Shown: positions 6,935 through 23,300 of the stretch, in pieces
Position numbering within the stretch: position 1 is the first letter of the stretch
Layout: each line of letters starts with the position of its first letter
Source: a virus
Taxonomy: Duplodnaviria > Caudoviricetes
Length of the DNA stretch: 64,000 nucleotides
Reading direction: 5' to 3' (one strand)
Virus record (IMG/VR): IMGVR_UViG_3300034052_000013
Location: 18,144-82,143 of that record
Notes under the pieces: model-generated
The model's input: only the letters and a program-made list of their open reading frames with translations
What the model was told of the DNA's origin: nothing
The model's database searches: none
Position numbers and translations under genes: made by a program

Positions 6935-6941
6935 GAAAAGT

Positions 6942-9900
6942 ATGTTAGGAGAAGACCCAATTATAATCCCTAAAGAAGAGGGAGATAAAATAGCACAGCA
7001 AAATATAGATGCTATAAGAGCTGCACAACTTCAACAAGATAGAGGTTTTAGTTTCTTACATGCACCACAAAATGTAAAAGGTGCTAGTGACACTAGATTA
7101 GAAAATTTATACGAGGCTGGTATCAACCCTCAATTAGCTTTATTTGATGACAACTATGATGTCAACCAACAACTTTATGATAGACAAAGTTGGGGGGAAG
7201 CTTTAGGTACTGCTGTTGGTGGTGGTATTGTTAAAGGTGCTTTAACTTTAGGTGAAACTGTAGGGTATTTAGGTGCTGTATGGGATTATGATAATTTAGT
7301 AGGTGCAACTTCAGATTTAGATGAGGGTGTTACTAATGCTTTATCTGATACTATGACAGAGTGGAAAAAAGAATTTGATGAAGCTAATCCAATTTACTCA
7401 CAAGGAACAGGTGATGCAGGTTGGTGGATGCAAGGTATTCAATCTACAATAGATTCTGCAGTAGGTTTTGGTGTTCCTGGTGGGGCTATAGCAAAAGGTA
7501 TAGGGTTAGCTGTAAAAGCATTAGCAAATCCAATTGTCCGTGAAACCGTTAAGAATGTTGGTACATCTTTACTATTAAATAGAGTGGAGTCTCAAATGAT
7601 GGGTAAAGAATTGTATAATAACACAATGCAAAAAGCTTTAGCTGAAGGTTTAGATTATTCAGAAGCTAGTCGTATTGCCCAAGAAAAACAACAAGAGTTT
7701 ATGGTTAGAAACTACTCTAATACACTTTTTAATGCTGTGGGGTTAAGTAAAGCTTTACGTAATTCTTATATGTTAAAAGGTGGAGCTGAAAAAGCTCTTA
7801 AATATGGTTGGGTAAAAGAGCAAACTTTAAACGCTTTTTCAGAGTCTTTAGAAGAAGGTGCTTCAGGTTTTTTACAAACTGAATCTGAAAGAGATGCAGA
7901 TTTAGAATTAGGTATGAGAAAATCTGATGGGTCTAGTATGCTTGGTAGAGTTGGGGACTATGTATCTTCTGCTCAAGGTATTACTGAAATGACTTTTGGT
8001 GCTATGGGTGGACCTTTCCAACATGGTCTTACAAGAGCTATTGGTGGTATGAATGAAGCTTACAATAAGAAAGTGGGCAACACATCTTTTACAGAAGAAG
8101 CTCCTACACAGTCTTCAGCAACTGTTGCTAAACCTAAATCTACAGTTACTAACCCAGGAGATTTAAAAGAATATTTACAAAAAAAACACCCAGGTTTAGA
8201 AGATGCAAAACTAGAACAAGTTATATCAGGTCAACTTAATGATGAAGCTCTTGAGAAATCTAAAGCTGAATGGGAGAAAAAGAATACTCAATGGGAAGAC
8301 CATAAAACTAAAAATAAAGATTATTATGAAGAGCAAGAGAAACTTGCTAAAGAAAAAGAAGAATACTCACTTTGGGAAAAGCGTAAGACAGATTTTGAAA
8401 AGAAACAACGTTCAAAAGAGCAGATGGATAAGACAGGAACTATTGCTCAAACAACTGAAGAGATTTCTACTTTTTTAAAAAATGATGTTAAACTTGAGCA
8501 AGAGTATCAACAAGCTTTAAAAGAGGGAGATGATATAAAAGCTAAAGATATTGAAAATCAAAGATTTGAAACAATGTTTTTACGACATGCTCAAAAAGAG
8601 TCTGTGTTTAGAGATGGGGCTAAACCAGATGGGTCTTTACAATCAGCTTTAGAAGAACATATAGCTAAAGGTAAAGAAGCAAATGCTACAGTAGAAGATA
8701 AAGCTGCTGCTGTTAAAGCTCAAACATTCTTAGATAAATTACCTGCATACAGAGATATGTATAAAAAAATTAGAAAGAATAATCCAGGACTTGAGGATTA
8801 TGCTTTTAGATTACTTGCTCGTAAAGAAAGTGTGGACAGTGTAATAGAACAATTAAATGCAGAAGTAGAAAAAGCTAAAGTTGATATTGCTAAATCTGTA
8901 GCAAATACTATGGGAGTTACAGTATCTCCTTTAGAAACAAAAATTATAGAACTTAATCAAGAATTAGTAGCGTTAAAAGAAATGAAAGAGGACGCACTAA
9001 GAAAAGGTAATATGGAAGCTTTAAGCTTATTTGACAAACGTGTTGAAAAAGTTGAAGCTTTAAAAAAACAAACTGAAGAGTTGAGAGAGCAAGATTCAAA
9101 TAAATTATCTGCTGCTGATATACAAGAAGTTAATAAACGTGTTGCTGAACAAAAAGATTATCTTGATAAAGTTAAAGCTCGTACAGATGCTTTAGTAGCT
9201 TATGATGCTATCAGTTCTGCATATAGTAGAGTTGTTGATGGAAGTTTAGCTAAGACTGTTGAAAAAGAACGTGTAGAACATATTAAAGAGTCTATTGAAC
9301 AAATGTCAACAGGTTCTGAAGTACTTAAAGTGCAACGTCTTTTAGACAATCTAAAAGTGAACACCTCATCAAAAGTTAAATTAGAAAAACAATTTAAAGC
9401 TAAAAAAGAAACTTTAACTAAAGCAAAAGAAGTTGCTGAAAAAGCTTATGAACAAAAGCAACAACAAGTAGAAGCTTTTAAAAAGAAAAAACAATCTTTA
9501 GCAGATGATAAAAAACTAAGAGTTAAAAGAATAAAAACACTTGAAAAAGCTTTAAAAAATTATCAAGATAAACCAGGATACGAAGAAGCTGTATCTTATG
9601 CTTTAATGGAACTTCAAGAACTTCAAGAACAAGCTCCGGATTATAAAGCTGAACAACTTCTTATAGAAGCAGGGATTCTAGAATTAGAAGCAGAATTAGA
9701 AAATTTAAATTCTAAATATACATTTGATTTTAAAGCTGCTTTAGAAAAAGCTGCTAAAAAAGAACACCTGTCTCCTAGTGAAGCTGATGGTGTTGCAAAT
9801 GCTACTGGAAATACTGCAGGAAATACAATGGCTGCAGGTGTTAGATCACAAACAGATTCCCAAAATAATCAAAAAGCAGAACGTGGTACTGTTATACATG

Positions 9901-12020
9901 GTACTGCAAAAGGTGGACTTACAGAAAGTGAAGTTCCAACTGCTCCTACAAGAAGTGTTGCTTATGTTTCTCACTCAGGAGATAAAGGTAATAAAACTTT
10001 AAATGAAGATGAGGTTATTGGAGATTGGTTAGAAACTACAAAAGATCTTAATAAAGAAGGTACTGTTTTAGAAATGCAACCTATAACATCTTCAAAACCA
10101 TATCATACTGATGAAGAAGTTGCAGCTATAACTTTATTTAAAAAAGTTTCAAAAAGAAAAGTGAAAAACCCTCTTACAGAAGAAGAGGTAAAAGTTTTGA
10201 GACACTTGCCTATGACATTTGTTTTCAAAAAAGATGGTGAAGTTATTATGCATAATGGTCACCCTGTTGTAGGGAATGTACCAAGAGGTAAGACTCATTC
10301 AGATTTAGTTGAAAGAGGTATGATGGTACAGAAGCATTTAAATGAAGGTGTTTATACAACAACTGTAACTAAGGTTCATCAAGGAATATTTAAAGTTGAA
10401 GAAGACGAAACTTCACAAGCTTTTTCAGGACATATTAAAGATGTTTTTGGAGATGTTACATTAGCTATTTCAGACGGTCAAAATTTATATACAAACTTTT
10501 CAAGCAATGGTCATACAAAAGCTGAGATTAATGCTTCAAAATCTACTCCAGGTTTTACTTATGCTATAGTTCGTACTGCTAATGGTACATTATATCCAAT
10601 GAGATTAAATCTAAGAAAGTTAGATATGATTGAAAGTAAAGCTCTTGCTACAGCTGTGGCTCACATTGCATCAGGTACAGCACCAAATGCAGAGATAAAA
10701 GATGTACCAGGTTTTGCTGGGTTATCTTACTTACAACTTATAAACCTACTAGTTTATGAAGGTTCTAATACAGTAACTTCAAGTTCACATTTTCATATAG
10801 ATTTAGTTAATAAAGTATTAAAGATAAACGACAATGAAATACCTTTTACTGATGTTAAAAAGAACTTAAGTGCTATTGAAGACTATGTTTCTAATATGTA
10901 TCGTACAGTTCGTTCTGACGGATTAAACACAACATTTGAAAAAATGAATTTAGGTATTAGTGACTCTTTTACTTGGAAAGGTAAAGAAGTTAAATATAAT
11001 GCTAACTATAATGAATTCCTATATGGTGATGTTGTTCAAAATGAACATGGTGTTAAGACAGGTGTATTAAGTACGAATGCTATAAAACAACCTAATGGTG
11101 CTGTGTTTATTCAACCTTATGTAGAATATAAATCTCCTGATTTAATCAAACCCCCTAAGAAAGAAGTAGCTACACCTAAGACTGAAGCTGCTCCAGTTAG
11201 AGAAGAATCTTCTGATGTAAACCAAGAGCAAATTATTTCATCTAAGATTAAAGGTTATCAAGACACTGTTACAAACTCTTCAGATCCAATAATTATAGCT
11301 GAAGCTTTACGTGATATGTTAACTTATTTTGAAAGTTTAGACAGTCAAGCCTTGGATACAATAATAGTTGATACCGTATCTTTACCAGATATTGAAATCC
11401 CTACGCTTAAAGATTATATAGAATTCCTTTCGTCAAGAGGGGCTAAGTTAAGTTCTTTAAATGTCACTGCTGAAGAATATAACATCTCAGAAGGGACACC
11501 TCATGAAACTCTTACAGGAATGCAGATTATATCAAGAGGTGTTCATCGAGGTGGAAAATTAATCATTAAAGGTGAAGCAATCAACTATCCAAATGCTGTT
11601 AAAGAAGTTAAATCTGTAGAAGAGATAGTTGAAACCACTAGTCAAGAAACTTCACAAGAATTTGTAGGGCCTTTTACTAACCCTCTAATTAGAGAGTTTG
11701 TTAATGAAACTTTAACTACAGGTTATCCAGGTGCTTTACAATCTAAAGCTTTTGAAAACCTTTCAGAAGAGGATAAAGATATTGTTATGCAAAAACTTTC
11801 AGACCCGTTAGCTGAACCTTTTGAAAACATCACTAAACCTAAAGAAGTTGAAAAAGTTGTTGAAAATACAGTTGAAGAAGAGGTTGAAGAATTTGAAATA
11901 CCAGCTTCTGAAAATAGTGTAGGTTTACCAACTTCTCAGACTGAAGAAGATAACGCTGCGATGTGTGGAAAAGGTGTTACAAAAAAACCTACAGTTAAAA
12001 GGGGTGTTAAGAAGCTGTAA
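6942..12020 (+). CDS. Large virion cargo protein of the vRNAP cluster (phi14:2 gp65-like position)
   Basis: 1692 aa. Hydrophobic Gly/Ala-rich N-terminal helices, long coiled coil, acidic tail. Lies upstream of the virion RNAP. Confidence 0.6.
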   Translation: MLGEDPIIIPKEEGDKIAQQNIDAIRAAQLQQDRGFSFLHAPQNVKGASDTRLENLYEAGINPQLALFDDNYDVNQQLYDRQSWGEALGTAVGGGIVKGALTLGETVGYLGAVWDYDNLVGATSDLDEGVTNALSDTMTEWKKEFDEANPIYSQGTGDAGWWMQGIQSTIDSAVGFGVPGGAIAKGIGLAVKALANPIVRETVKNVGTSLLLNRVESQMMGKELYNNTMQKALAEGLDYSEASRIAQEKQQEFMVRNYSNTLFNAVGLSKALRNSYMLKGGAEKALKYGWVKEQTLNAFSESLEEGASGFLQTESERDADLELGMRKSDGSSMLGRVGDYVSSAQGITEMTFGAMGGPFQHGLTRAIGGMNEAYNKKVGNTSFTEEAPTQSSATVAKPKSTVTNPGDLKEYLQKKHPGLEDAKLEQVISGQLNDEALEKSKAEWEKKNTQWEDHKTKNKDYYEEQEKLAKEKEEYSLWEKRKTDFEKKQRSKEQMDKTGTIAQTTEEISTFLKNDVKLEQEYQQALKEGDDIKAKDIENQRFETMFLRHAQKESVFRDGAKPDGSLQSALEEHIAKGKEANATVEDKAAAVKAQTFLDKLPAYRDMYKKIRKNNPGLEDYAFRLLARKESVDSVIEQLNAEVEKAKVDIAKSVANTMGVTVSPLETKIIELNQELVALKEMKEDALRKGNMEALSLFDKRVEKVEALKKQTEELREQDSNKLSAADIQEVNKRVAEQKDYLDKVKARTDALVAYDAISSAYSRVVDGSLAKTVEKERVEHIKESIEQMSTGSEVLKVQRLLDNLKVNTSSKVKLEKQFKAKKETLTKAKEVAEKAYEQKQQQVEAFKKKKQSLADDKKLRVKRIKTLEKALKNYQDKPGYEEAVSYALMELQELQEQAPDYKAEQLLIEAGILELEAELENLNSKYTFDFKAALEKAAKKEHLSPSEADGVANATGNTAGNTMAAGVRSQTDSQNNQKAERGTVIHGTAKGGLTESEVPTAPTRSVAYVSHSGDKGNKTLNEDEVIGDWLETTKDLNKEGTVLEMQPITSSKPYHTDEEVAAITLFKKVSKRKVKNPLTEEEVKVLRHLPMTFVFKKDGEVIMHNGHPVVGNVPRGKTHSDLVERGMMVQKHLNEGVYTTTVTKVHQGIFKVEEDETSQAFSGHIKDVFGDVTLAISDGQNLYTNFSSNGHTKAEINASKSTPGFTYAIVRTANGTLYPMRLNLRKLDMIESKALATAVAHIASGTAPNAEIKDVPGFAGLSYLQLINLLVYEGSNTVTSSSHFHIDLVNKVLKINDNEIPFTDVKKNLSAIEDYVSNMYRTVRSDGLNTTFEKMNLGISDSFTWKGKEVKYNANYNEFLYGDVVQNEHGVKTGVLSTNAIKQPNGAVFIQPYVEYKSPDLIKPPKKEVATPKTEAAPVREESSDVNQEQIISSKIKGYQDTVTNSSDPIIIAEALRDMLTYFESLDSQALDTIIVDTVSLPDIEIPTLKDYIEFLSSRGAKLSSLNVTAEEYNISEGTPHETLTGMQIISRGVHRGGKLIIKGEAINYPNAVKEVKSVEEIVETTSQETSQEFVGPFTNPLIREFVNETLTTGYPGALQSKAFENLSEEDKDIVMQKLSDPLAEPFENITKPKEVEKVVENTVEEEVEEFEIPASENSVGLPTSQTEEDNAAMCGKGVTKKPTVKRGVKKL

Positions 12021-12060
12021 AAATAACTGTTTTAATTAGTTATTATTAAAATTTATTTCG

Positions 12061-12068
12061 TATATTTG
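12061..12068 (+). promoter_or_regulatory. Bacteroidota-type -7 promoter box upstream of ferritin
   Basis: TATATTTG matches TAnnTTTG, 19 nt before the ATG at 12088. Confidence 0.7.
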
Positions 12069-12087
12069 TTAAATTAAAATAATTATT

Positions 12088-12582
12088 ATGTTTATAAGTA
12101 CCAATATTGAGAAATTGCTTAACTTTCGTATAGAACAAGAAGAAGCTTCAAGTCGTTTATATTTAGCTATCAGTAAAAAATTAGATTATCTAGGTTTTTT
12201 TGGTGCAGGTGAATTGTGGAAAAAATACTCTGATGAAGAGTTAAAACATGCACAATGGGCTTATGAGTTTTTAGAAAATTTAGATATACTTCCTTGTGTA
12301 CCTTCTTTGGAAAAACCTGATATGAAAGATATTACATGTATTATAGATGCAATAGATTTAAGTTTAGCACATGAAGAGTTGATTACAAAACAGTGTAATG
12401 ATTTAGCTAAAGCTGCAAATGATGAAGGTGATTATATGACTTTAGGTTTAGCTTTAAGATTTGTGCAAGAACAAAATGAAGAGCTTGCTAAAATTATGTA
12501 TTGGAAAAACAGATATGACATTGTAGGAGAAAGTTCTGAAGGTGTTTATATGTTAGATAAAGAAATGCAATCTAAAATTTAA
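12088..12582 (+). CDS. ftnA: Non-heme ferritin (FtnA-like)
   Basis: 164 aa with ferroxidase-centre pattern EQE..SS..Y, EELKHA, HEELIT, EQNEE spaced as in bacterial ferritins. Confidence 0.88.
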   Translation: MFISTNIEKLLNFRIEQEEASSRLYLAISKKLDYLGFFGAGELWKKYSDEELKHAQWAYEFLENLDILPCVPSLEKPDMKDITCIIDAIDLSLAHEELITKQCNDLAKAANDEGDYMTLGLALRFVQEQNEELAKIMYWKNRYDIVGESSEGVYMLDKEMQSKI

Positions 12583-12587
12583 TTTTT

Positions 12588-15500
12588 ATGAGTAGACAAT
12601 TTTGCCCTGTTACAAGTTCTCCTGATTGGATTAATCATGAGAGTCTTGTTAAATACCCTTATACATCTTGGATTGCTAATAAAGGTAATCCTATGAACTT
12701 AGCTCCTAATGGGGCTAATAGTGTTTTATTTGAAGATTTAAAAAAAAGTCTGTCAGAGAAAGTTTCTAAAAATGAATTTTTAAAATTTACCGACTTACAC
12801 GACAACCCTTCAATTCAACAAACTATTTTTAATAAACAAGGCAAAGTTAAGAAATATGACTATAATGTAGCTTTAGAAATAATGGTACGTTTAAATAGTG
12901 CATATGAAGAAGAGGGTTTTAAATTTCAAGTTACAAAAGACCTAGTTACCCCTACTCATTTTAATATTATTGTTTCTAAAATAGAAGATGGAGTCACTAC
13001 AGAATTACAAAACAATTCAATAGAAAATACTGCTATAATAGCTAAAGCATCTATATTATCTAACCCTAAGAGTGAAAATTTACCTAAAGATGAAAATGGT
13101 GAAGTTATTCTTAATGAAGAGTCTAAGAAATTAATAGATTTCACACCTAAACAAAATAGTGATGAAATTCTTAAGTTAAACTTATCTGCAGCATTAAGTC
13201 AAAATTTTGACCCAGAAGTTTATTTTGCTAACCTGTATGAAAATAAGGTTGGTGCAACTCTTTCAGCTAATGCTCCTTTAATAACTTTAGGGTTTAAATC
13301 TGGTATGGTTGTAGGTGAACCTGCTTTTGATATGCAAGTTCAAAAACTTTTAACACTTACAGCAGAATTACAAAATGTTACCATAGTTCAAAGTTCTAAT
13401 ACCGGATCTACATTAACTTCTAGATATACAGAAGGTCTTACAAAAAACCCTCTTAATGTTCAAGAAGAGTTGGCAACTTTAAGAAAAATTTTACCTAATG
13501 TTCCTATTACTGTGCGTAATGGTTTACTTCATTTAGGTAATGGTGAAGTTGCTGAAGGTACATTTGCAGATGGTGTAATTACAATCTTTACTGGTGGGAG
13601 TGCTGGTGTAGGTTTACATGAAGCTTTCCATGCAGTTAGTACAGGAATTTTAACTGAGAAACAAAGAAATATTGTTTATAATGAGTTAAGAGCTTTAAAC
13701 CCTAGTTTATCAGACGAACAAATTGAAGAAGAACTTGCTGAGAAATTTAGAGAGTGGTATTTAGGAAAAGGTGATATGAAAGATATGCCAAGTTTAATTA
13801 AATACTTATACAACATTTGGAAAGATTTAGTTATGTACTTTACTAACAGTAGTGAAGTTGATAAACTATTCAATAGAATACGTAATGGAAAATATGCTAG
13901 TAGTAAATTTACAACTAATCAAAAACAATTGTTCTCTAAATTAGGTATATATAATGATATGCAAGTGGAGATTGTAGAAGCATTAACATATTTATTTGTA
14001 GAGAAAGCTGGTTTTCGTTTAACAGAAAAAGATTTAGATTTAGATTCACCTAAAGCTGCTAAGTTTTCAGAACAAGTGTTTGTTGAAGTTCATAATGCTA
14101 TTATAGATATAATTGAACAAGCTGAAGAGAATGGAGAAGATGAAGAGTTAATAGACCGTCTTTACTTTATAGTACAAAAAGGTGAAGATGGTGCAGAGGA
14201 CAATTGGACACCTTTAAAACAAATTGTCAAATATGAGTTAATGAAATACTCAATTGGTTTTGAAGATAAAAAATCTAAAGCTGCAAAAGAATCTGCTGAG
14301 AAAGCTGCTGCAACTGTTGAAGAAGATCAAAAAGTTAAAGGTGGTCTTAATATAGGTAACGCTGTTAATTTTGAAGGTAAGCAAAATGCTACAGGACAAA
14401 CTAAATTGTTAATAGCAATGTTACAAGATTCTAAAGAACCTTCTAAATACTTTGGTGAATACTTACCTAAGTTAGCTAATTATGATAAAACTTATAGAGC
14501 TCTTGAAGATGGTTTAGCTAATGTTACTGGTGGTAAGATTGTTGATGGTAAACCTCAAAGTATTCGTGAAGCTTTGTTTGAAAGACTTAAAGAAATCTCA
14601 CAAGAACACCCACAGTTGCAAGAGTTAGTCCATAATTTTGAAACAAAAAAAGTTTCTGATTTTAAACAGAGACAATTTTTTACAAATTTTCATAAAACAA
14701 AAGTTAATTATAGGAGCTCCTTATATCGTAAAGATAATGAAAGTTCTTACACTGTTAAGAAAGGGGATGCTGACCAAAATAATAAAAGTAGAATTATACG
14801 TGCTGAATGGAGTAATGATTTTATTTTAAAACATGTAAACTCAAAAGGTCAAGTTTTTAATGTAGATATTTTAGAAGCTTCTATTAAAGCTTTTGAAGAT
14901 GCTTATAAATACTATTCTAAAAAAGAAACAACTCTAGAAAATGTAGAGCAAAGTTATAACACTGCTATTGAAAGACTTACAGAATATTTAAACAATTTAG
15001 GTATTGAAGTTTCTGAAGGAGGCCTTGCTAAATTTGTCACACAACAATACGGAGAAGATTTAAAATATCAAATGAGTAGAGCTTTTGAAAAAATTTCTAA
15101 AGCTTTAAGTGGAACTAAAGTTAAAAATACTTTAGTTAATAATATTAAAAATGGTATAGACCCACATAAGAATTTTATAACTGACCAACGTGTGTTTTTA
15201 GAACTAGCAGAAGTTGAAGTTCCTTTTAGAAAACTTCCTACATCTAATGTTATTAAAGGTTCTGACAATAAAGATTACTGGACAAAATCTTTAAATAACA
15301 ATATGACAAAAACATTACAACTTTGGAAAAACAACCCTGAGTTGATAAAACAACTTAATGATAAACAATATCATAAAGGTTCTCATTGGTTACCTATGTT
15401 ATATGAAAACAATCTTTTAAGAGACCAAGTAGAAGTAACTGTTTGGTTATTTAATAAATTAGAACAATCTTCTGACGTAGGTGTAGACTATTCAGATTTA

Positions 15501-18500
15501 ATTGAAAAAGATGAGTTTATAGAAAGACTTAACGACACATTATATGGTCGTGTAGGCAAAGCTTCACACTCAACATTAACTCTTGCAGATAAATCTTTAT
15601 GGTATAATTTTGAGGGTTTCCCTACAGAAGTATTATCTAATTTTCAAAAAGAAGGTTCTAAAGGTATCAGTGAAAAGGGTGTAGATATATTTTATAAATA
15701 TGCTTTAGCTGAAGCTGAAAAAATTTCTTACAATTTAAGAAACAGTAATGATTATACAGAATACAAAGGTACAGAATCTTTTTGGTTTCCTGAATTAAAC
15801 TATGACTCTAAGTTTGCTAAAGATAATGCATTATACAATGCAGATTTTTCAATCAATATTAATGCTGAAGAAGCTATTAAAGAGATGATTGCTGACACTC
15901 TTGTTAAACGTATTGCTGAAGTTAGACAAAAGCTTACAGATAATGGAGTTCTTTTAACTAACACTGAGAAAGGTAAGAAAGTAGAGTACCTTTTAGGTGT
16001 AGATAAATCTATCCAAGCAAAATATTCACTAGGGTCTGCTGCCTCTAAACAAGCAATAGATAATATGATTGGAGATTTTGTTATGAATAATATGATAGCT
16101 AATATTGAAACTACAATGTTATTTACAGGAGACCCTGCTTTTTATAAAGATTTAGCAAAACGTACTCCAGCTATTAGTTCTACTGGTACAGATTATATAC
16201 CTGATGAAACTGCAGGTATTCCTGAAAATTATAATTTAGCAATCTCAACAGAACCAATTTCATCTACAATCTATGAAGATTCTTTAAAGAAAGCTTTTAT
16301 AAAAGATGTTAAAAAACGTAACCCTAAAATATCTAAAGAGGATTTAAATAAAAAGGTAGATAGTTTAATGAAACCTTATTTAAATATGAAAACTTCAGAT
16401 GGTGGGGGTTTAATTACACCTAAACGTTGGAGAGATATTATGAGAGCTGTAGGTGTTTTTAATGATGAGAAACACGGACCTTTATATGATAAGTTAATTG
16501 AAGATTTTAGTGCAGAAGGTTTAACTGATTTAATGAAACAAATGGGTTTTCCTTATGGTAACCCTATTAAAGGTCACCATTTTGAATTAATACAAAAAGA
16601 GGATTCAGAAATTGCTCAACCTTTATTTTTAAAATATTCTCAGTTTGTAGCTTGGGCACCTGTTGTTAAAGGTACAATATTAGAAGATATCGTTAAGAAT
16701 ATGGAAGCTAATAATATTGATGAACTAGTTCCACCTTCAGCTGTTAAAGTTGGTATGGAGTCTTTAGTAGACTTTGATATGTTATCGACTTTAGGTGTTA
16801 AATTAAAACCTATAACTTTATCTAATATGGGTTGGAAACTACAAACAGAAACACCTTCTAAATATGAGAAAAAAGGAGAGTCTTTAGTAGGTTCTCAACC
16901 ACAAAAGAACATCTTAGTAGGTATTTTAGGTAAGAGTTTTGTTATAGATGGTGAAACTGTCTCAGGAGAAGAGATGTTTAAACGTCTACAAGAAATTCAA
17001 ATAAGACTTTCTGACAAAGGTTTAGCTAACACTAGACGGTCATGGGGTATGAAACCTGTTGAGGTTACAATAAAAGGAGAGACAGTCGAGATATATGACG
17101 ATAAGATTCATAGACGTAAACACTTATATGATGAATTAATAGAGGAGTTCAGAACAGAAGGCACTCCTGAAAATATTATAGAAGCTCTTGAAATGGGGGT
17201 GCCATTTGATGCACTTTTCCAAGGGGTTACTAAAATACAAAATAAGTTAAGAGGTAAAGTTAAAAATAATGCAGTTCAAACACAAGCACATGGTGGAGCT
17301 TTTATACAAATACCTAACACAGGTTTTGCTAAAAAACAAGGTTTTACTAACCATGCTGAACTTGTAGTTGCCAGTAGAAATGAACTTATCTACTTAAAAG
17401 ATGTAGACCAGATTCATGGTCCTCATATAGATAAATCAGGTAAAGTTATTCCAGGTGATGTTTTCTTACCTTATAGTGTAATTAAAAAAATACCTAACAT
17501 AGACCAATTGATTAAAGAAGGAAAAGTTACAGGTAAATGGTTACGTGAACAATTGGGAGAAGGTGTATTAGATGTTATTGGATATCGTATACCTAACCAG
17601 GGTTTATCTTCTATTGACACTTTAGAAATTGCAGGTATACTACCACCTTTCATGGGAGATAGTATTGTTACATACACTGAAATTGTTGGTAAGACTGGAT
17701 CTGACTTTGACATTGACAAAATGTATGTGCTTATGCCAAATACTGTATATAATAAAAATACAGGAAAAGTAGAAATAGTTACTCCTAATACAAGTTCTAA
17801 AAAAGGTTTAGAAAATTTACGTATTAAACTTTGGAAAGCTGTATTAGAAAATCCAGAATCTTTTGGTGAAGTTATGACCTCTGTTGATGCAGATTGGTTA
17901 GCTGAAGATGCTTATTATGTAGAAGCTTTATCTATTCTTAAAAGTGACAAATCACTATTAAAAACTTTAGGTTTTGAGACAATTGAACAATTTACTACAG
18001 CTGAGAATAAAAAACAAATAGCTAGAAAAGCTCTTTCTAATAGAAAATATAAAGCTTTAGAATTTGCTTCTCCTTTAGAACAGGTACGTTTAAAGAAAGT
18101 AAACTTAGCTGGTAAAGCTGGTGTTGCTCAAAACGCTAACCATATCGTACATATTCCCCTTGCTCAACAAGCACATTTAGGATTTAATGGTAATATTACA
18201 AATGTTGTAAAAGGTACTAACACTTTAGATTCAATTTTAAATGCTGATAAAGAAGATATTGCACAAGTAACTTCAGCATGGGTAACAGCTTATGTTGACT
18301 GTGCTAAAGACCCTTACATTGCATTATTAAACAATAATACAAAAACAAGTAACACTGTATCTTTAATGGTACGTATGGGGATTTCTCCTGAATACGTTAA
18401 CAGATTTATGACACAACCTATAATTGTAGATTATATAAATGAACTTTACAATCAAGATAGTAGATTTAAAACTTTTGAAAAAGAAAGATTAAACTATTAC

Positions 18501-20324
18501 TCTTTTAAAGTAGATTCTACAGGGTCTTTAGTTAAAACTAAAAAAACAGGTCGTCCTGACATTGTTAACAGAGTGTTGTCAAAATATGAGGATGTGTCTA
18601 AAATTAAAACAATAATTAAAGAAATTACAACTGTTCAAGGTTTAGAAGCAGAACTTTTAAATCCTACTAAAAACCAAGTAGAGATATTTAAACAATTTTT
18701 AATATTTCAAAAATATGGTTCAGATTTAAGTAAAGTTGTAAAAGCAAGTCGTTATGATGTTACTGCAGGTGAAAAAGACTCAGCTTCAGCTTATGCTCAA
18801 CAACAAGTGTTTGCAGAGGCAATGTCTCTTGAGACTATTACTAATGTTGAAAACTTATTTGAGGATACTGCTTTAGGAACTTATAAAAGAAACTCTGCAG
18901 ATTTTCTAAACAGAGTGTTGTCAAGAGAGTTTTTAACAGATAGTAAAGGTGCAATTGTTGCTTTAGAGGAATATAAGAAAGCAAAAGGTATAGAATATCT
19001 TACAAATTATACAGAAATTAATGAGGTTCTTAAAGCTCTTAAAGCTTATTCACATTCTGCATCTTACATGACTCAAAGAAATGGTAGACAAATTCAACAA
19101 ATGTTCTTTGGTGAGAACACTATGGTACACAAACTTACAAAACTTAAAGAGATGTATCCTGAAAGTGTTTTAATTGACTCTTTAGTAAGATACATTGAAA
19201 GAGAAGACCCTAAAGCTCCTATGTTTATATATTTACCTTCATCTAAAATTACAGATGTTAATGACATTAACACTTTATTAGGAGACTTTGAAGAATTGTA
19301 TAGTGAATTTGGAGATAATGTAATTGAAGATGGTTATACTGTAAGAAACTTCTTAGATGATTTAGCAGCTATGTCTTACTACACTTCAGGGTTTAACAGG
19401 TCTTTTAATTCATTTTTTGAAATTTTACCAGCTTCTTACTTAGCAGGTAAATTAGCTGGGCAAAGTCCAAATAAAAGTTTCTATAATAATTATGATATAC
19501 ATAATAGTTCTAATGTCTACAACAGATTACGTTCTTTAGATTCTATGGAGAATTTCTCAGACCAATTTTTTAGACATAATTTTGGTAATGATGGGGTTAT
19601 GCCAGTTATAAACTTATATTCGACATATGATTATAATACTTTTACAACAAGTTTAAATACTGCTAAATTAACTACATATGGTATAAAACCTTATCTAAAT
19701 TTTACAATGGGTTTTACTATTGAAGATGAAAATTTACCTGAACTTTTAATAGCAAATACTTCTCCTGTAGATCCAAGAACAGGTGAAAAAGGGGAAGTTA
19801 AAATTCCTGTTGCATATATGTCTATTGTAAATAACTTTAATGATACTGTGCACGGATATAAATATGCTGGTAAACGTGGTAATACACATTACTTTACAGC
19901 TGTTACTCCATTAGGTTTAAATAATAAAGGTTATAAAATATTAGAGTATCAAGTTGATAAATCTGTAATAAGTGCTGTTAACCCTACTGTTCAAGGTTTA
20001 CCTCTTGAAGTGTTAGCCTCAGTACAAAAAGAAAATAGTTATGGAGACTCTGCTATAAATTTTGGAAAAAGAGTTGATATTGACGAAGAAAGTTTTACCT
20101 TTGACAATATTAAAAATAAAACCTTTAAACTTAAAGAGATTATTAAAGATAATCAAACTTACTATCAAGGTGTAGTAGAGTATGTAAAAGCTGGTCTTAC
20201 TTATACAAGAACTGTAACAGAGCTAATGTACCCAAATAAAGAAGAAGCTTTAACAGCTTTAGAAGAAAAACTGAGAAAACACTCAGTAGATATTGTAGAT
20301 GATGTAATAACTAATATGTGTTAA
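12588..20324 (+). CDS. Virion-packaged single-chain DNA-dependent RNA polymerase (phi14:2 gp66-like) with N-terminal zincin-like domain
   Basis: 2578 aa. GYRIPNQGLSS followed by GKTGSDFDIDKMY, the DFDID catalytic loop typical of crAss-like vRNAPs. HEAFH (HExxH) at 13617-13631. Confidence 0.92.
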   Translation: MSRQFCPVTSSPDWINHESLVKYPYTSWIANKGNPMNLAPNGANSVLFEDLKKSLSEKVSKNEFLKFTDLHDNPSIQQTIFNKQGKVKKYDYNVALEIMVRLNSAYEEEGFKFQVTKDLVTPTHFNIIVSKIEDGVTTELQNNSIENTAIIAKASILSNPKSENLPKDENGEVILNEESKKLIDFTPKQNSDEILKLNLSAALSQNFDPEVYFANLYENKVGATLSANAPLITLGFKSGMVVGEPAFDMQVQKLLTLTAELQNVTIVQSSNTGSTLTSRYTEGLTKNPLNVQEELATLRKILPNVPITVRNGLLHLGNGEVAEGTFADGVITIFTGGSAGVGLHEAFHAVSTGILTEKQRNIVYNELRALNPSLSDEQIEEELAEKFREWYLGKGDMKDMPSLIKYLYNIWKDLVMYFTNSSEVDKLFNRIRNGKYASSKFTTNQKQLFSKLGIYNDMQVEIVEALTYLFVEKAGFRLTEKDLDLDSPKAAKFSEQVFVEVHNAIIDIIEQAEENGEDEELIDRLYFIVQKGEDGAEDNWTPLKQIVKYELMKYSIGFEDKKSKAAKESAEKAAATVEEDQKVKGGLNIGNAVNFEGKQNATGQTKLLIAMLQDSKEPSKYFGEYLPKLANYDKTYRALEDGLANVTGGKIVDGKPQSIREALFERLKEISQEHPQLQELVHNFETKKVSDFKQRQFFTNFHKTKVNYRSSLYRKDNESSYTVKKGDADQNNKSRIIRAEWSNDFILKHVNSKGQVFNVDILEASIKAFEDAYKYYSKKETTLENVEQSYNTAIERLTEYLNNLGIEVSEGGLAKFVTQQYGEDLKYQMSRAFEKISKALSGTKVKNTLVNNIKNGIDPHKNFITDQRVFLELAEVEVPFRKLPTSNVIKGSDNKDYWTKSLNNNMTKTLQLWKNNPELIKQLNDKQYHKGSHWLPMLYENNLLRDQVEVTVWLFNKLEQSSDVGVDYSDLIEKDEFIERLNDTLYGRVGKASHSTLTLADKSLWYNFEGFPTEVLSNFQKEGSKGISEKGVDIFYKYALAEAEKISYNLRNSNDYTEYKGTESFWFPELNYDSKFAKDNALYNADFSININAEEAIKEMIADTLVKRIAEVRQKLTDNGVLLTNTEKGKKVEYLLGVDKSIQAKYSLGSAASKQAIDNMIGDFVMNNMIANIETTMLFTGDPAFYKDLAKRTPAISSTGTDYIPDETAGIPENYNLAISTEPISSTIYEDSLKKAFIKDVKKRNPKISKEDLNKKVDSLMKPYLNMKTSDGGGLITPKRWRDIMRAVGVFNDEKHGPLYDKLIEDFSAEGLTDLMKQMGFPYGNPIKGHHFELIQKEDSEIAQPLFLKYSQFVAWAPVVKGTILEDIVKNMEANNIDELVPPSAVKVGMESLVDFDMLSTLGVKLKPITLSNMGWKLQTETPSKYEKKGESLVGSQPQKNILVGILGKSFVIDGETVSGEEMFKRLQEIQIRLSDKGLANTRRSWGMKPVEVTIKGETVEIYDDKIHRRKHLYDELIEEFRTEGTPENIIEALEMGVPFDALFQGVTKIQNKLRGKVKNNAVQTQAHGGAFIQIPNTGFAKKQGFTNHAELVVASRNELIYLKDVDQIHGPHIDKSGKVIPGDVFLPYSVIKKIPNIDQLIKEGKVTGKWLREQLGEGVLDVIGYRIPNQGLSSIDTLEIAGILPPFMGDSIVTYTEIVGKTGSDFDIDKMYVLMPNTVYNKNTGKVEIVTPNTSSKKGLENLRIKLWKAVLENPESFGEVMTSVDADWLAEDAYYVEALSILKSDKSLLKTLGFETIEQFTTAENKKQIARKALSNRKYKALEFASPLEQVRLKKVNLAGKAGVAQNANHIVHIPLAQQAHLGFNGNITNVVKGTNTLDSILNADKEDIAQVTSAWVTAYVDCAKDPYIALLNNNTKTSNTVSLMVRMGISPEYVNRFMTQPIIVDYINELYNQDSRFKTFEKERLNYYSFKVDSTGSLVKTKKTGRPDIVNRVLSKYEDVSKIKTIIKEITTVQGLEAELLNPTKNQVEIFKQFLIFQKYGSDLSKVVKASRYDVTAGEKDSASAYAQQQVFAEAMSLETITNVENLFEDTALGTYKRNSADFLNRVLSREFLTDSKGAIVALEEYKKAKGIEYLTNYTEINEVLKALKAYSHSASYMTQRNGRQIQQMFFGENTMVHKLTKLKEMYPESVLIDSLVRYIEREDPKAPMFIYLPSSKITDVNDINTLLGDFEELYSEFGDNVIEDGYTVRNFLDDLAAMSYYTSGFNRSFNSFFEILPASYLAGKLAGQSPNKSFYNNYDIHNSSNVYNRLRSLDSMENFSDQFFRHNFGNDGVMPVINLYSTYDYNTFTTSLNTAKLTTYGIKPYLNFTMGFTIEDENLPELLIANTSPVDPRTGEKGEVKIPVAYMSIVNNFNDTVHGYKYAGKRGNTHYFTAVTPLGLNNKGYKILEYQVDKSVISAVNPTVQGLPLEVLASVQKENSYGDSAINFGKRVDIDEESFTFDNIKNKTFKLKEIIKDNQTYYQGVVEYVKAGLTYTRTVTELMYPNKEEALTALEEKLRKHSVDIVDDVITNMC

Positions 20325-20326
20325 TT

Positions 20327-23300
20327 ATGGCAAGTTGTCCTTATAAAAAAGATCCTGATTGGATTTCATTAGTAGCAAAACATGGTGAGCTTGAAGCTTA
20401 TTACTTATATGTACATAACGGGTATAAAATACCTACAAATGTATCTGAGGTTCCACCTCAACATACTTGGGCTAAAGAAGATGAAGAGTTAGTACAAAAT
20501 TTAAAAGATATTACTCAACTTCGAGAAGAAATACTTATAAGTTTAGTTACCAAAGCAAACATCTTTTCAAAACAAGAGGAATTTACAGGTAACCTTAAAA
20601 CTTTAATAAAAGATTTAGTTGAAGCAGATATTCAAAAAAGTATTATTATTTTCTTAGACAATACTAATAAAAAGATGGAAGCTTTAAAACAAAGAATGAG
20701 AGACAATTCTGATGACATTGAAGCTCTTAAACTTATTAAAGATTTCTCTACAACATACGAATTAGTTTATGATATGGGTAGAGTGTTGGCAAAATCTGAT
20801 AAAACCTCTTCTAAAAAATTAAAAAAGTATATTAATAAAATAAAAGGTGACCTTAGTGAACTTAATGACATGTATATCAGATACTCTAGGGATATTCTTG
20901 CAAAAAGTTTAGCTCAACACTCAACTGTTATTCGTCATGAATACAAAGTAAAGTTTGCAAAAGAGTTTAAAGATAATCATGATAAAAAATCATTTAAAGA
21001 TGAAGCTACTTATGAAGAAGCTAAATTTAAATATGTAGATGAAAACATTACACGATTACACGACCAAATACAAAAAGAGGAAGAGCAAAATATTAAAAGA
21101 TTATTAATAACAGCTCCTGAAGATATTAGTGAAATAGTTAAGTCTATATCAGACCCTAGAAATATTAAAGACCATATTTTACAATTGGCTGTTCTTACTT
21201 TAGATAATGCAGACCATAGAGCATATTCACAATTTATCGAAGATGAAAGAACTGTTTTAGAAAAGTTTAAAAACTTTCAAGGAAAACGTGGAGCTGTGAT
21301 GACTGACCAAACTAAATTGTACAATGGTATTATTGAAAAGATAGATGGTGTTGAAACACAATACTATGTGAGAAAACATTACAGCACTTATTATGAAGCT
21401 TTAAATAGATTTTTTAAAGAGCGTAAATCTCTTATAGATGAAAGAGATTATTATGAACATAAAGACCTTGAAAAATATAATGAACTTGTACAAAAAGAGC
21501 AAGAGTTGGTGACAGAATTTAGAGATAAATGGTTCGATATGCCTTCTGATGCAAAAAGTAATACAGATTTTTGGCATGCAATTAAGTATGATAAATGGGT
21601 TAAACAAGAATTTGTTAACCCTCAATTCACAAATATGTCTGCAGATACTAAACAAATGTACGATTTTTTAATTGAGTTTAACCAGGAGTCAGATAAATTA
21701 GTTCCATATCGTGCACGTCTAGGGTACAGATTACCTTCTGTAGATAAAACTAAAAGTGAAAAGATTCAAAGTTCTTTAAAGAAAGAAGGTTCTGTTTGGG
21801 GAAATATTAAACGTAGTGTACAACAAACTTTAGGTCTTGTTGAAAGTGATACAGAGTTTGGGGATTTAGAAACTTCAGTTGATAGTGAAGGTAATAAGAT
21901 AATAAAAGTTATTCGTGATGTTGGTGGTAAAGCTTATGAACACATAGCAGTACCTTTTAGACAACCAATTAGTGCACAAAACCAATCTTATGATTTAGTT
22001 GGTATGGCTTTATCTAATAGATATGTCTCACTCAACTATGCTGAGAAATCGAATATAAAGGTCGAATTAGAGGTTTTAAAAGATATTACAGCAGATAGGA
22101 CTGTAGTTAAACGAAAAGGTCTTAAAACGCAAGTTATACATGCTTTTAATTATGAAAAATTAACGGGTGAAGAGTTGTCAAATATTCCAGACACTCTTAA
22201 AGGTATAGAAAGTAAATCTCATAAACGATTAGTGTCACTTTTAGAAGACAGGTTATATGGTAAACATAATGTGCCTACAATGATTGGTAGTGTGTCTATG
22301 GATAAAGTTGCTTCATTACTTACAGGTTGGTCAGCTGATTTAATGTTGATTACAAATGTTTGGGGTGCTGTTGCAAATACATTGAATGGAAAAACTATGA
22401 ACTTTTTAGAAGGTACTAGACGTATTCACTATGATAGAAAAAACTTAAGACATGCAGAGGTTTCTTATTGGAAAGATATGGGTAATATTGCAATGGATTT
22501 TGAAGAACTTTCTCCTAATAGTATTACCAATATTTTAATGCAAGAGTTTTTAGACTCTTCTATAAATTTTGACCCCCTTTCTAATAACTTAGTTAAAGAT
22601 AATAAAGTTAAAAGGTTATTCAATAAAAAAACTTTACATGCTGCTAATACAATGGCAGAACATTATATTCAAGGCACACTTATGTACGCTGTTTTAGACA
22701 ATTATAAAATATTAAAAGACGGTAAATATATAGATGCTAAAGGTAATGTTACTACAAGAGAAAATGCTTTAACTTTACGTGAAGCTTTTAAAAATGTAAA
22801 AGGAAAAGCAACCTTACCAAATGGGTATACTGTAGAAGGTTTTTCACAAAAACAAATGGAAGAAGGTTTGTATAAAGAAATTATTCGTAGAAAAATTAAG
22901 GATGTCACAGCAGATTTACAGGGTCAATATGACAGTGTAAATAAAGCTGAATGGGAACGTATGTTCTATGCTAAATTAGTTTTATTCTTACGTAAATGGG
23001 TTATTAGAGGTTCTCAAAGAAGATTTATGGGATTAAAATATGTAACTACAGATTTTAATGAGATGAGTAGAGATGATAAATTTTATTCTGAAGCTGCTCA
23101 AGAATATAAGGAAGGTACTTACACTACAATGTTTAGATTTTTTAACTCAGCTAGAAAAAATTTAATCTCTTTAAAAGGGCAAACAGAAACTTTATCAATT
23201 GGAGATAAGTGGAAAGATTTGTCTGATTATGAACAAGCTCAAATTAGATCTGCTTTAACTGAAATATTAATTTTATCTGTCACATTTTTAACAGCAAAAC

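What the first reader, a model, noticed from the sequence alone, without database searches (positions are those of the whole stretch)
11964..20338. Head-to-tail cysteines in the three giant ejected proteins suggest a disulfide-linked cargo chain
Counted by eye from the supplied translations, the five cargo proteins have 0, 0, 1, 3 and 1 Cys. Four of these five Cys lie at termini: the 1692-aa protein has its only Cys 18 residues from the C-end (AAMC), the RNAP has one at residue 6 (FCPVTSSPDW) and one as its last residue (TNMC*), and the next protein has one at residue 4 (SCPYKKDPDW). The two N-termini share C-P-x4-P-D-W and the two C-termini share M-C. Inference: C-terminal MC pairs with the next protein's CP..PDW peptide, linking the proteins in gene order for packaging or ordered ejection, with release on reduction in the cytoplasm. 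A shared metal site or docking peptide is an alternative.
Basis: partly seen in the sequence, partly recalled or inferred. Interest (0 to 1): 0.78.

Follow-up and report, generated by a model that had tools for sequence, protein, structure and literature searches.

The report
Terminal cysteine pairs chain crAss cargo proteins
Three giant proteins that this crAss-like phage most likely packs and injects (its RNA polymerase in the middle) carry almost no cysteine except one at each end that faces the next protein; relatives keep such a pair wherever the genes are separate and lack it wherever they are fused, which suggests the proteins are tied end to end into one thread, probably by disulfide bonds that nobody has yet tested.

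Summary
The 636-, 822-, 1692-, 2578- and 1114-aa proteins have 0, 0, 1, 3 and 1 Cys. Four of the five lie at facing termini: A Cys1675, B (vRNAP) Cys6 and Cys2578, C Cys4.

The pattern is a rule, not chance.
- All 28 unfused vRNAPs examined have an N-terminal Cys at residues 3-6.
- All 26 upstream A proteins have a single Cys 1-32 residues from their C-end.
- Every complete B-C border has a pair.
- None of 31 A+B fusions keeps the border pair.
- B+C fusions keep only the N-terminal Cys.
- Six N-extension+B+C fusions of 4,612-5,860 aa have no Cys at all.
- Extra gene splits gain extra pairs.
- The cultured phages phi14:2 and crAss001 obey the rule.

Interior Cys is 0.028%, against 0.49% in neighbouring genes.

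A zincin-like domain lies on opposite sides of the A|B border in crAss001 and here, so the Cys follow the break, not a domain.

Cryo-EM of cyanopodophage A4 shows exactly such a bond (gp27 Cys1715 to gp26 Cys5). I found no paper describing it for Crassvirales. The bond is untested here.

This scan has found the same rule on at least 48 other genomes. Two features are specific to this window: a ferritin-like gene inserted between A and B, and a 17-residue tail after A's Cys.

The parts
180..2549 (+). Crassvirus muzzle (tail tip) protein; the frame is open from base 3, so its 5' end probably lies outside the window. It marks the start of the cargo block.
   Evidence: Pfam crAss_MUZ 4.3e-18 and crAss_MUZ_C 1.8e-09
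2549..4459 (+). Cys-free 636-aa protein in the position of crAss001 cargo protein gp45/gp46. Not part of the cysteine chain.
   Evidence: 0 Cys; no family match; the proteins upstream of A or AB in relatives also have 0 Cys
4466..6934 (+). Cys-free 822-aa protein, second cargo-like protein. Not part of the chain.
   Evidence: 0 Cys
6942..12020 (+). Protein A (1692 aa), counterpart of phi14:2 gp67 and crAss001 gp47. First link of the chain.
   Evidence: phmmer matches to the N-terminal parts of A+B fusions L003, L005 and L069; single Cys
11964..11966 (+). Codon of A Cys1675, A's only Cys, 18th residue from the C-end. Proposed donor to B Cys6.
   Evidence: 26 of 26 A proteins in relatives have one Cys 1-32 residues from the end
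12088..12582 (+). Ferritin-like gene (164 aa, 3 Cys) inserted between A and B. Not a chain member.
   Evidence: Pfam Ferritin 2.5e-19; absent at this place in the nearest relatives L088-L090 and L092, the loci that include the A-B border; only 4 weak hits in 50,697 phage records
12588..20324 (+). Protein B (2578 aa), a crAss-type virion RNA polymerase. Middle link, with a Cys at each end.
   Evidence: DFDID at residues 1706-1710; 87 homologues; alignment A1
12603..12605 (+). Codon of B Cys6, inside the N-terminal module F-C-P-V-T-S-S-P-D-W-I.
   Evidence: invariant column in A1; 28 of 28 unfused B have Cys at residues 3-6
13617..13631 (+). HEAFH motif (B residues 344-348) of a zincin-like domain. 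The same domain lies at the C-terminal end of A (gp47) in crAss001.
   Evidence: BLASTP of gp47 residues about 2087-2206 against B 279-393: 33% identity, E 2e-17
17703..17717 (+). Catalytic DFDID motif of the RNA polymerase.
   Evidence: D1706, D1708 and D1710 are invariant
18300..18302 (+). Codon of B Cys1905, the only interior Cys of the three proteins. Not conserved.
   Evidence: not among the invariant or nearly invariant columns of A1 or A4
20319..20321 (+). Codon of B Cys2578, the last residue. Proposed donor to C Cys4.
   Evidence: invariant column in A1 and A4
20327..23671 (+). Protein C (1114 aa), counterpart of phi14:2 gp65 and crAss001 gp49. Last link, with a single Cys at residue 4.
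   Evidence: tblastn 26.6% identity to phi14:2 g065, E 1e-76; 1,068 relatives; all-helical model with pLDDT 82.9
20336..20338 (+). Codon of C Cys4, in the module S-C-P-Y-K-K-D-P-D-W-I.
   Evidence: invariant in A2 and A3; P5 and W12 nearly invariant; most of the 150 representatives of the family have a single Cys, which lies at residues 2-7 (124 of the 150 have a Cys in the first 10 residues)

Best explanation
A (1692 aa), the virion RNA polymerase B (2578 aa) and C (1114 aa) are packed in the capsid and joined head to tail by two inter-protein disulfide bonds: A Cys1675 to B Cys6, and B Cys2578 to C Cys4. This would make one unbranched thread of about 5,400 residues with uniform N-to-C polarity. 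That thread is the chemical equivalent of the single 4,600-5,900-residue fusion proteins that some relatives encode.

A and C have one reactive end each and B has two, so the product is a defined 1:1:1 chain. The ends would first dock non-covalently; in this clade the docking would use the N-terminal C-P-x4-[DE]-W module shared by B and C. The thiols would oxidise once the particle leaves the reducing cytoplasm.

At infection the partly unfolded thread would pass through portal and tail as one string, each protein pulling in the next. Host reductants would then cut it into its parts.

Shown here: the cysteine rule and its behaviour on gene fusion and fission. Inferred: the S-S chemistry, its timing, the role in ejection and the release by reduction.
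For: 1. Window anatomy: four of the five Cys sit at facing termini.

2. The cultured relatives obey the same pattern. In phi14:2, gp67 has its only Cys as the last residue, gp66 has Cys 3 and 2179 of 2180, and gp65 has Cys 3. In crAss001, gp47 has Cys 2339 of 2341, gp50 has Cys 5 and 2404 of 2412, and gp49 has Cys 5. This holds although gp47 lies on the other strand and is not next to gp50.

3. In 80 IMG/VR loci plus the window:
- 28 of 28 unfused B have Cys at residues 3-6.
- 26 of 26 upstream A proteins have one Cys 1-32 residues from the end.
- All complete B-C borders have a pair.
- 0 of 31 A+B fusions have an N-terminal Cys, and 0 of 29 of their upstream neighbours have a C-terminal Cys.

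4. Fusions remove exactly the pair at the fused border.
- A+B forms keep only the C-terminal Cys.
- B+C forms (P0009, P0204, P0074, L052, L036) keep only the N-terminal Cys.
- Six fusions of an N-terminal extension in A's position (no detectable similarity to A), B and C (4,612-5,860 aa) have 0 Cys.

5. Extra splits gain extra pairs: L004 (AB | X | C), L036 (A1 | A2 | BC) and L069.

6. A split of B that has group-I-intron matches in the gap (L056), and the like split in L025, have no pair at the split.

7. The Cys follows the true polypeptide end, not a domain. vRNAPs with helicase or AlkB domains appended at the C-terminus carry the Cys at the new C-end. The zincin-like domain lies on the A side of the border in crAss001 and on the B side here.

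8. Interior Cys is 0.028% against 0.49% in neighbouring ORFs. The rule holds in at least 27 clusters at 50% identity of the catalytic core. It also holds in 17 loci read with TAG as Q.

9. Precedent: cryo-EM of cyanopodophage A4 shows a disulfide between gp27 Cys1715 and gp26 Cys5 (PMC12002296). In the A-4L genome these are the only Cys of a 1717-aa and an 1114-aa protein encoded by adjacent genes.

10. crAss001 virions do contain inter-subunit disulfides, in the tail and at the portal vertex (PMC10172136).
Against: - No direct evidence for an S-S bond in any crassvirus.
- Neither the crAss001 atlas nor the phi14:2 vRNAP preprint mentions these cysteines.
- The cargo is assembled in a reducing cytoplasm, and many of these phages live in the anoxic gut, so when and how oxidation happens is unexplained.
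- No thiol oxidase or thioredoxin-like gene was found among 28 window ORFs scanned.
- In this window A's Cys lies 18 residues from the end, not 1-9. The A and B genes are separated by an inserted gene.
- Locus L045 has a B fragment without a C-terminal Cys next to a fragment with an N-terminal Cys, which the rule does not explain.
- The loci share ancestry, so the counts overstate the number of independent events.
Confidence: 0.68

Rival explanations
1. The facing terminal thiols are bridged by a metal ion (Zn, Fe or Cu) rather than by an S-S bond. This would be a two-protein clasp in the manner of the Rad50 zinc hook, still joining the proteins head to tail.
For: It fits the same fusion and fission pattern, because it too needs one thiol from each facing end. 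It would form in a reducing cytoplasm.
Against: Each end offers a single Cys. No second conserved Cys or His lies near either terminus in alignments A1, A2 or A4: the invariant and nearly invariant terminal columns are C, P and W only. Two thiolates alone make a poor Zn site. In the one solved case (A4) the density was built as a disulfide.
Confidence: 0.1
2. The terminal cysteines do not bond to each other. Each reacts with, or is recognised by, something else, such as a capsid, portal or inner-body protein, a modification, or a cysteine-switch contact with the zincin-like domain. They vanish in fusions simply because the free end vanishes.
For: A zincin-like HExxH motif lies within about 180-340 residues of one terminal Cys in the window's B, in phi14:2 gp65 and in crAss001 gp47. 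Loss in fusions alone does not prove pairing.
Against: The first protein's N-end and the last protein's C-end never carry a Cys, so only ends that face another chain member do. Cysteines appear and disappear in pairs. Single-Cys A and C and two-Cys B give exact valence for a linear chain. One zincin-like domain cannot account for four cysteines, and it sits at different borders in different phages.
Confidence: 0.12
3. The Cys codons are a by-product of a nucleotide signal at gene junctions (translational coupling, a promoter or an RNA structure), not of selection on the protein.
For: Most pairs lie within about 30 nt of a stop-start junction.
Against: - crAss001 gp47 is on the opposite strand, not next to gp50, and still ends in Cys.
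- In the window a 0.5-kb gene separates A from B.
- Several B-C borders are about 500 nt apart (L039, L019, L025).
- Both TGT and TGC occur at these sites in the window, and the Cys positions vary among relatives (N-terminal residue 2-7; 1-32 residues from a C-end).
- Interior Cys depletion over more than 300,000 residues is a protein-level signal.
Confidence: 0.03

Closest known systems
Cyanopodophage A4 (Anabaena phage A-4L) pre-ejectosome: disulfide between gp27 Cys1715 and gp26 Cys5 (PNAS 2025, PMC12002296)
   Same: Two consecutive giant ejection proteins, each with one Cys: 1715 of 1717 in the upstream protein and residue 5 of 1114 in the downstream one. Cryo-EM shows them bonded C-end to N-end inside the capsid. 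The sequence signature is the same as at each border here.
   Different: There is one bond between two proteins, no RNA polymerase in the chain, and a different virus family (Saffermanviridae). phmmer found no similarity to crass A, B or C even at E 10. The paper reports a single contact, not a rule that tracks gene fusion and fission.
RNA-polymerase cargo block of cultured Crassvirales: phi14:2 gp67-gp66-gp65 and crAss001 gp47-gp50-gp49
   Same: These are homologous proteins, detected in virions by mass spectrometry (PMC10172136; record notes). The terminal-Cys pattern is identical.
   Different: Identity is only about 24-27%. Here a ferritin-like gene is inserted between A and B, A has a 17-residue tail after its Cys, and the zincin-like domain sits in B rather than in A or C. 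None of the papers I could read mentions the cysteines.
Single-polypeptide forms: fused proteins of some crAss-like phages (an N-terminal extension in A's position, then B and C), and the 3,500-aa N4 vRNAP with NTD, core and CTD (PMC13434306)
   Same: The same parts as one continuous thread, with the same N-to-C order. This is what the proposed disulfide chain would imitate.
   Different: They are joined by peptide bonds, contain no Cys at all (six of seven such fusions), and cannot be separated by reduction. The phi14:2 preprint assumed proteolytic cleavage for these forms.
Structural disulfides of the crAss001 virion (tail hub, ring proteins, portal-vertex gp57 dimer; PMC10172136)
   Same: They show that crassvirus particles use inter-subunit disulfides.
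   Different: Those bonds brace fixed symmetric assemblies that stay outside the cell. The bonds proposed here would join injected cargo end to end and would have to be reversible.

Membership tests
Crassvirales RNA-polymerase-associated cargo block (phi14:2 gp67/66/65 type) | Middle protein is a giant two-barrel-type RNA polymerase with the DxDxD catalytic motif | tested here: met
   DFDID at B 1706-1710; these Asp are invariant in 32 diverse homologues
Crassvirales RNA-polymerase-associated cargo block (phi14:2 gp67/66/65 type) | Sequence homology of the flanking giants to gp67/gp47 and gp65/gp49 | tested here: met
   C: tblastn E 1e-76 to phi14:2 g065. A: phmmer matches to the A parts of fused relatives. 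crAss001 gp47 C-terminal domain matches B 279-393, E 2e-17.
Crassvirales RNA-polymerase-associated cargo block (phi14:2 gp67/66/65 type) | Lies downstream of the muzzle protein and two smaller cargo proteins | tested here: met
   Pfam crAss_MUZ at 180-2549, followed by two Cys-free ORFs
Crassvirales RNA-polymerase-associated cargo block (phi14:2 gp67/66/65 type) | The proteins are present in the virion and are ejected | not testable with these tools
   Known by mass spectrometry only for phi14:2 and crAss001. Inferred here by homology.
Head-to-tail disulfide between consecutive ejection proteins (phage A4 gp27-gp26 type) | Lone Cys within a few residues of the upstream protein's C-end and lone Cys at residues 2-7 of the downstream protein | tested here: met
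   B Cys2578 with C Cys4, and A Cys1675 (18 from the end) with B Cys6. A-4L: Cys1715 of 1717 and Cys5.
Head-to-tail disulfide between consecutive ejection proteins (phage A4 gp27-gp26 type) | A physical S-S bond in the mature particle | not testable with these tools
   Needs non-reducing gels, cross-link mass spectrometry or cryo-EM
Head-to-tail disulfide between consecutive ejection proteins (phage A4 gp27-gp26 type) | Homology to A4 gp26/gp27 | tested here: inconclusive
   No phmmer hit at E 10. Fold searches with the C model gave only generic helical bundles, and a 1114-residue query is a weak test.
Metal clasp of the zinc-hook type | At least two ligands per partner (such as CxxC), or other conserved Cys or His next to the terminal Cys | tested here: not met
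   One Cys per terminus. No conserved His or Cys in the terminal columns of A1, A2 or A4.
Cysteine-switch latency of a zincin protease (MMP type) | The Cys and the HExxH lie in the same chain, for every conserved Cys | tested here: not met
   C and A of the window have no HExxH; only B has one (HEAFH at 344). One domain cannot explain four Cys.

The most novel reading that the evidence does not exclude
Crassvirales, a crass-like cyanophage and, independently, phage A4 may build their injected cargo as a split polyprotein. On this reading, wherever evolution cuts the giant thread into separate genes, a Cys pair at the cut stitches the pieces back together in the particle. A thread of more than 5,000 residues then travels through the tail in the N-to-C direction as one molecule. 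The host's reducing cytoplasm unstitches it, which would make release, and possibly activation, of the virion RNA polymerase depend on redox state.
Probability: 0.5. Interest if true: 0.85.

Novelty: new variant of a known kind. Interest (0 to 1): 0.77.

Why it matters
How crassviruses, the most abundant phages of the human gut, store about 0.7 MDa of cargo and push it through a narrow tail in the right order is an open question. It is raised in the crAss001 structural atlas and again in the 2026 N4 paper.

A covalent, reversible end-to-end tether would explain three things:
- the fixed 1:1:1 stoichiometry;
- the ordered ejection;
- why three genes in one lineage and one giant gene in another can do the same job.

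The idea can be tested directly on phages already in culture (phi14:2, crAss001, Lbo-JY46, A4) with gels and mass spectrometry.

The sequence rule is also a practical annotation aid. It marks true protein ends, true start codons and the members of the chain, and it separates chain members from inserted passenger genes such as the ferritin-like gene here.

Tried and rejected
- **Co-fold of the proposed contact.** I co-folded C residues 1-420 with B residues 2400-2578, each with its own alignment. The result was no verdict (score 0.02, mark 0.32), and the partner's own fold was uncertain. It counts neither for nor against binding.
- **Fold searches with the C model** (pLDDT 82.9). Foldseek against the PDB gave nothing at E 0.001 or better. 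VIA-align wide gave only generic helical bundles with Z up to 9.9. No link to A4 gp26 or any other solved ejection protein could be shown or excluded.
- **Profile search of C against PDB sequences.** Only weak matches to cytochrome b562-like four-helix bundles.
- **Word-based search for A homologues.** It found only one weak relative, so A proteins were collected by gene position instead.
- **First search of viral contigs with C alone.** It found nothing.
- **Metagenome search with the 23-sequence alignment.** A 7-sequence alignment worked.
- **Aligning the A-end and B-start of the window to fused relatives.** This was meant to show what replaces the Cys, but the region is too diverged.
- **Phage-encoded thiol oxidase or thioredoxin.** None was found among the 28 window ORFs scanned.
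- **Rejected readings.** Chance. A nucleotide-level junction motif. B circularisation, or A(C)-C(N) pairing. The last two fail because A+B fusions lose A's C-terminal Cys and B's N-terminal Cys together, while B's C-terminal Cys and C's N-terminal Cys stay.
Full report
**What is in the window.** The + strand from 180 to 23671 carries a crassvirus tail and cargo block. In order it holds:
- the muzzle protein (Pfam crAss_MUZ);
- two Cys-free proteins of 636 and 822 aa;
- a 1692-aa protein, here called A;
- a 164-aa ferritin-like protein;
- a 2578-aa protein with a DFDID motif, here called B, the virion RNA polymerase;
- an 1114-aa protein, here called C.

The nearest cultured relative is Cellulophaga phage phi14:2, with 26.6% identity to g065.

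A has one Cys, at 1675, which is 18 residues from the end. B has Cys 6, 1905 and 2578, the last residue. C has one Cys, at residue 4 from the ATG at 20327. One search verified the codons. Other ORFs in the window have 1.7% Cys.

**The cultured relatives show the same pattern.**
- In phi14:2, gp67 (1797 aa) has its only Cys as the last residue. gp66 (2180 aa) has exactly two, at 3 and 2179. gp65 (1421 aa) has one, at 3.
- In crAss001, gp47 (2341 aa) has one, at 2339. gp50 (2412 aa) has Cys 5, 1334 and 2404. gp49 (1349 aa) has one, at 5. Here gp47 lies on the opposite strand, away from gp50. That argues against a nucleotide signal at gene junctions.

**The pattern is general.**
- Among 87 vRNAP homologues, most proteins of about 2,000-2,600 aa have exactly two Cys, at residues 3-7 and 1-6 from the end.
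- In an alignment of 32 diverse members, Cys6 and Cys2578 are invariant columns alongside the catalytic aspartates.
- Among 150 representatives of the C family (clustered at 50% identity; 1,068 relatives in all), most have a single Cys, which lies at residues 2-7; 124 of the 150 have a Cys within the first 10 residues.

**Fusions and splits give the pairing.** I fetched 80 viral loci with 10-kb flanks and tabulated every ORF.
- All 28 unfused B have an N-terminal Cys.
- All 26 proteins just upstream of them (1,281-2,199 aa) have a Cys 1-32 residues from the C-end. In 25 of them it is the only Cys.
- In 31 loci A and B are one protein. None has an N-terminal Cys, and none of their upstream neighbours has a C-terminal Cys.
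- Every complete B-C border has a pair.
- B+C fusions (P0009, P0204, P0074, L052, L036) keep only the N-terminal Cys.
- Six fusions of an N-terminal extension in A's position (no detectable similarity to A), B and C, 4,612-5,860 aa long, have no Cys at all. One (P0134) has ten interior Cys.
- Extra splits create extra pairs: L004 (AB | 1167-aa X with Cys 4 and Cys at the second-last residue | C), L036 (A1 | A2 | BC) and L069.
- Where B is interrupted by about 0.9 kb, no pair is present at the interruption (L025, L056). In L056 the gap has group-I-intron matches below the Rfam threshold, E 3e-7. The mature protein is presumably continuous there.
- Seventeen loci that are fragmented under table 11 become AB | C with a proper pair when TAG is read as Q. 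They hold 17-72 in-frame TAG per gene, and the residue assigned to TAG is my assumption.
- Ten metagenome loci nearest the window follow the rule too.
- So does the cultured Leptolyngbya phage Lbo-JY46: a 1552-aa protein ending in Cys is followed by a 2748-aa protein with Cys 4, whose C-terminal part matches the C family.

The loss of A's C-terminal Cys and B's N-terminal Cys together, with the other two retained, excludes two other pairings: B circularisation with A-C pairing, and A(C)-B(C) with B(N)-C(N).

**The cysteines follow the chain break, not a domain.**
- vRNAPs that have acquired helicase or AlkB domains at their C-terminus carry the Cys at the new end.
- The zincin-like domain with HEAFH lies at B 279-393 here. 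In crAss001 it lies near the C-end of gp47, with 33% identity over 120 residues and E 2e-17. In phi14:2 an HExxH motif is in gp65.
- So the gene borders move along a conserved virtual polyprotein, and the Cys pair moves with them.
- Interior Cys is 86 in 302,879 residues (0.028%), against 0.49% in other ORFs of the same loci.
- The loci fall into at least 27 clusters at 50% identity of the catalytic core. The events are not all independent, but the rule is old and widespread.

**Mechanism.** The simplest chemistry for one thiol on each of two facing ends is a disulfide.

A direct precedent exists. Cryo-EM of cyanopodophage A4 shows gp27's C-terminal helix docked in gp26 and bonded Cys1715 to Cys5 (PMC12002296). 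I checked the A-4L genome. These are the only Cys of a 1717-aa and an 1114-aa protein encoded by adjacent genes, and the proteins have no detectable sequence similarity to the crass proteins.

crAss001 virions contain other inter-subunit disulfides. The atlas proposes that cargo leaves partly unfolded, with gp45 going N-end first.

A C-end to N-end link keeps one polarity along the whole thread, as in the fusion proteins and in the single-chain N4 vRNAP. The role in ejection, the time of oxidation and the reduction in the host are inference.

**Features specific to this window.**
- The shared C-P-x4-P-D-W-I is the start of a module of about 35 residues that is conserved at the N-end of C in this clade and is also seen at the N-end of B in some members: C-P-N-x4-E-W-K-x-L-V-x-x-V-G-E. 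In the C model it is a short coil followed by two short helices.
- 'M-C' is not conserved. Close relatives of B end in N-x-C.
- The ferritin-like gene between A and B is absent at that place in the nearest relatives and rare in phages. A's 17-residue Lys-rich tail after the Cys is also particular to this phage.

**Literature and earlier findings.** I found no mention of these cysteines in the crAss001 atlas, the phi14:2 vRNAP preprint or the 2026 N4 paper. No paper combines Crassvirales, cysteine and cargo proteins. The published Nature version of the phi14:2 paper was not held.

This scan has reported the same rule on at least 48 other genomes. I reached the rule before reading those notes. 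I took from them only the lead to the A4 paper, which I then checked.

**Verdict.** The pairing in gene order is strongly supported by comparative evidence and by one structural precedent. The disulfide itself and its function remain to be shown.

Noticed in passing
window 12088-12582 (+): A ferritin-like gene (Pfam Ferritin 2.5e-19, 164 aa, 3 Cys) sits inside the cargo block between A and B. It is absent at this place in the nearest relatives, and only 4 weak tblastn hits exist in 50,697 phage records. Whether it is packaged, or has anything to do with iron or redox chemistry in the particle, is unknown.
   Followed up: partly
window 13617-13631 (B residues 344-348); L002 crAss001 gp47 residues about 2087-2206; L001 phi14:2 gp65 residue 245: The zincin-like HExxH domain sits in a different protein of the trio in each phage. 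BLASTP of the gp47 C-end against the window's B N-part gives E 2e-17. Gene borders therefore shift along a conserved thread.
   Followed up: partly
L056 11960-12870; L025 11654-12597: The vRNAP gene is interrupted by about 0.9 kb. In L056 the gap has two group-I-intron matches (36 and 28 bits, below the gathering score of 50; E 3e-7 and 7e-5).
   Followed up: partly
L041, L046, L048, L061, L066, L067, L071-L081: The cargo genes are broken by 17-72 in-frame TAG codons each and become whole when TAG is read through. This is probably the TAG recoding known in some crAss lineages. These lineages have more interior Cys than the others.
   Followed up: partly
L094 (Leptolyngbya phage Lbo-JY46, PP438436.1) 6567-19473: A cultured, unclassified 125-kb cyanophage has a crass-like cargo pair. 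A 1552-aa protein ends in its only Cys, and a 2748-aa protein has its only Cys at residue 4 and a C-terminal part that matches the C family. It could serve as a laboratory model outside Bacteroidota hosts.
   Followed up: partly
L045 13386-16871; L021 17658-19379: Related ORFs of 1161 and 573 aa (starting M-N-K-H-I-E-A-E-G and M-S-K-N-I-E-V-E-G, each with two Cys seven residues apart) are inserted inside or beside the chain and have no terminal Cys. In L045 the flanking B pieces break the simple rule.
   Followed up: no
P0044, P0045, P0048, P0054, P0053 (vRNAP homologues): Some vRNAPs carry about 1,000 extra C-terminal residues with helicase (PF13604, PF13245) or AlkB-like (PF13532) domains, according to precomputed Pfam labels.
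   Followed up: no
window 48833-50605 (-): A 590-aa ORF with 37 Cys and no Pfam match lies next to the family A DNA polymerase gene (50636-52510).
   Followed up: no
window 39027-39968 (-): A protein with a NUMOD1 domain, probably a homing endonuclease, lies in the replication module.
   Followed up: no
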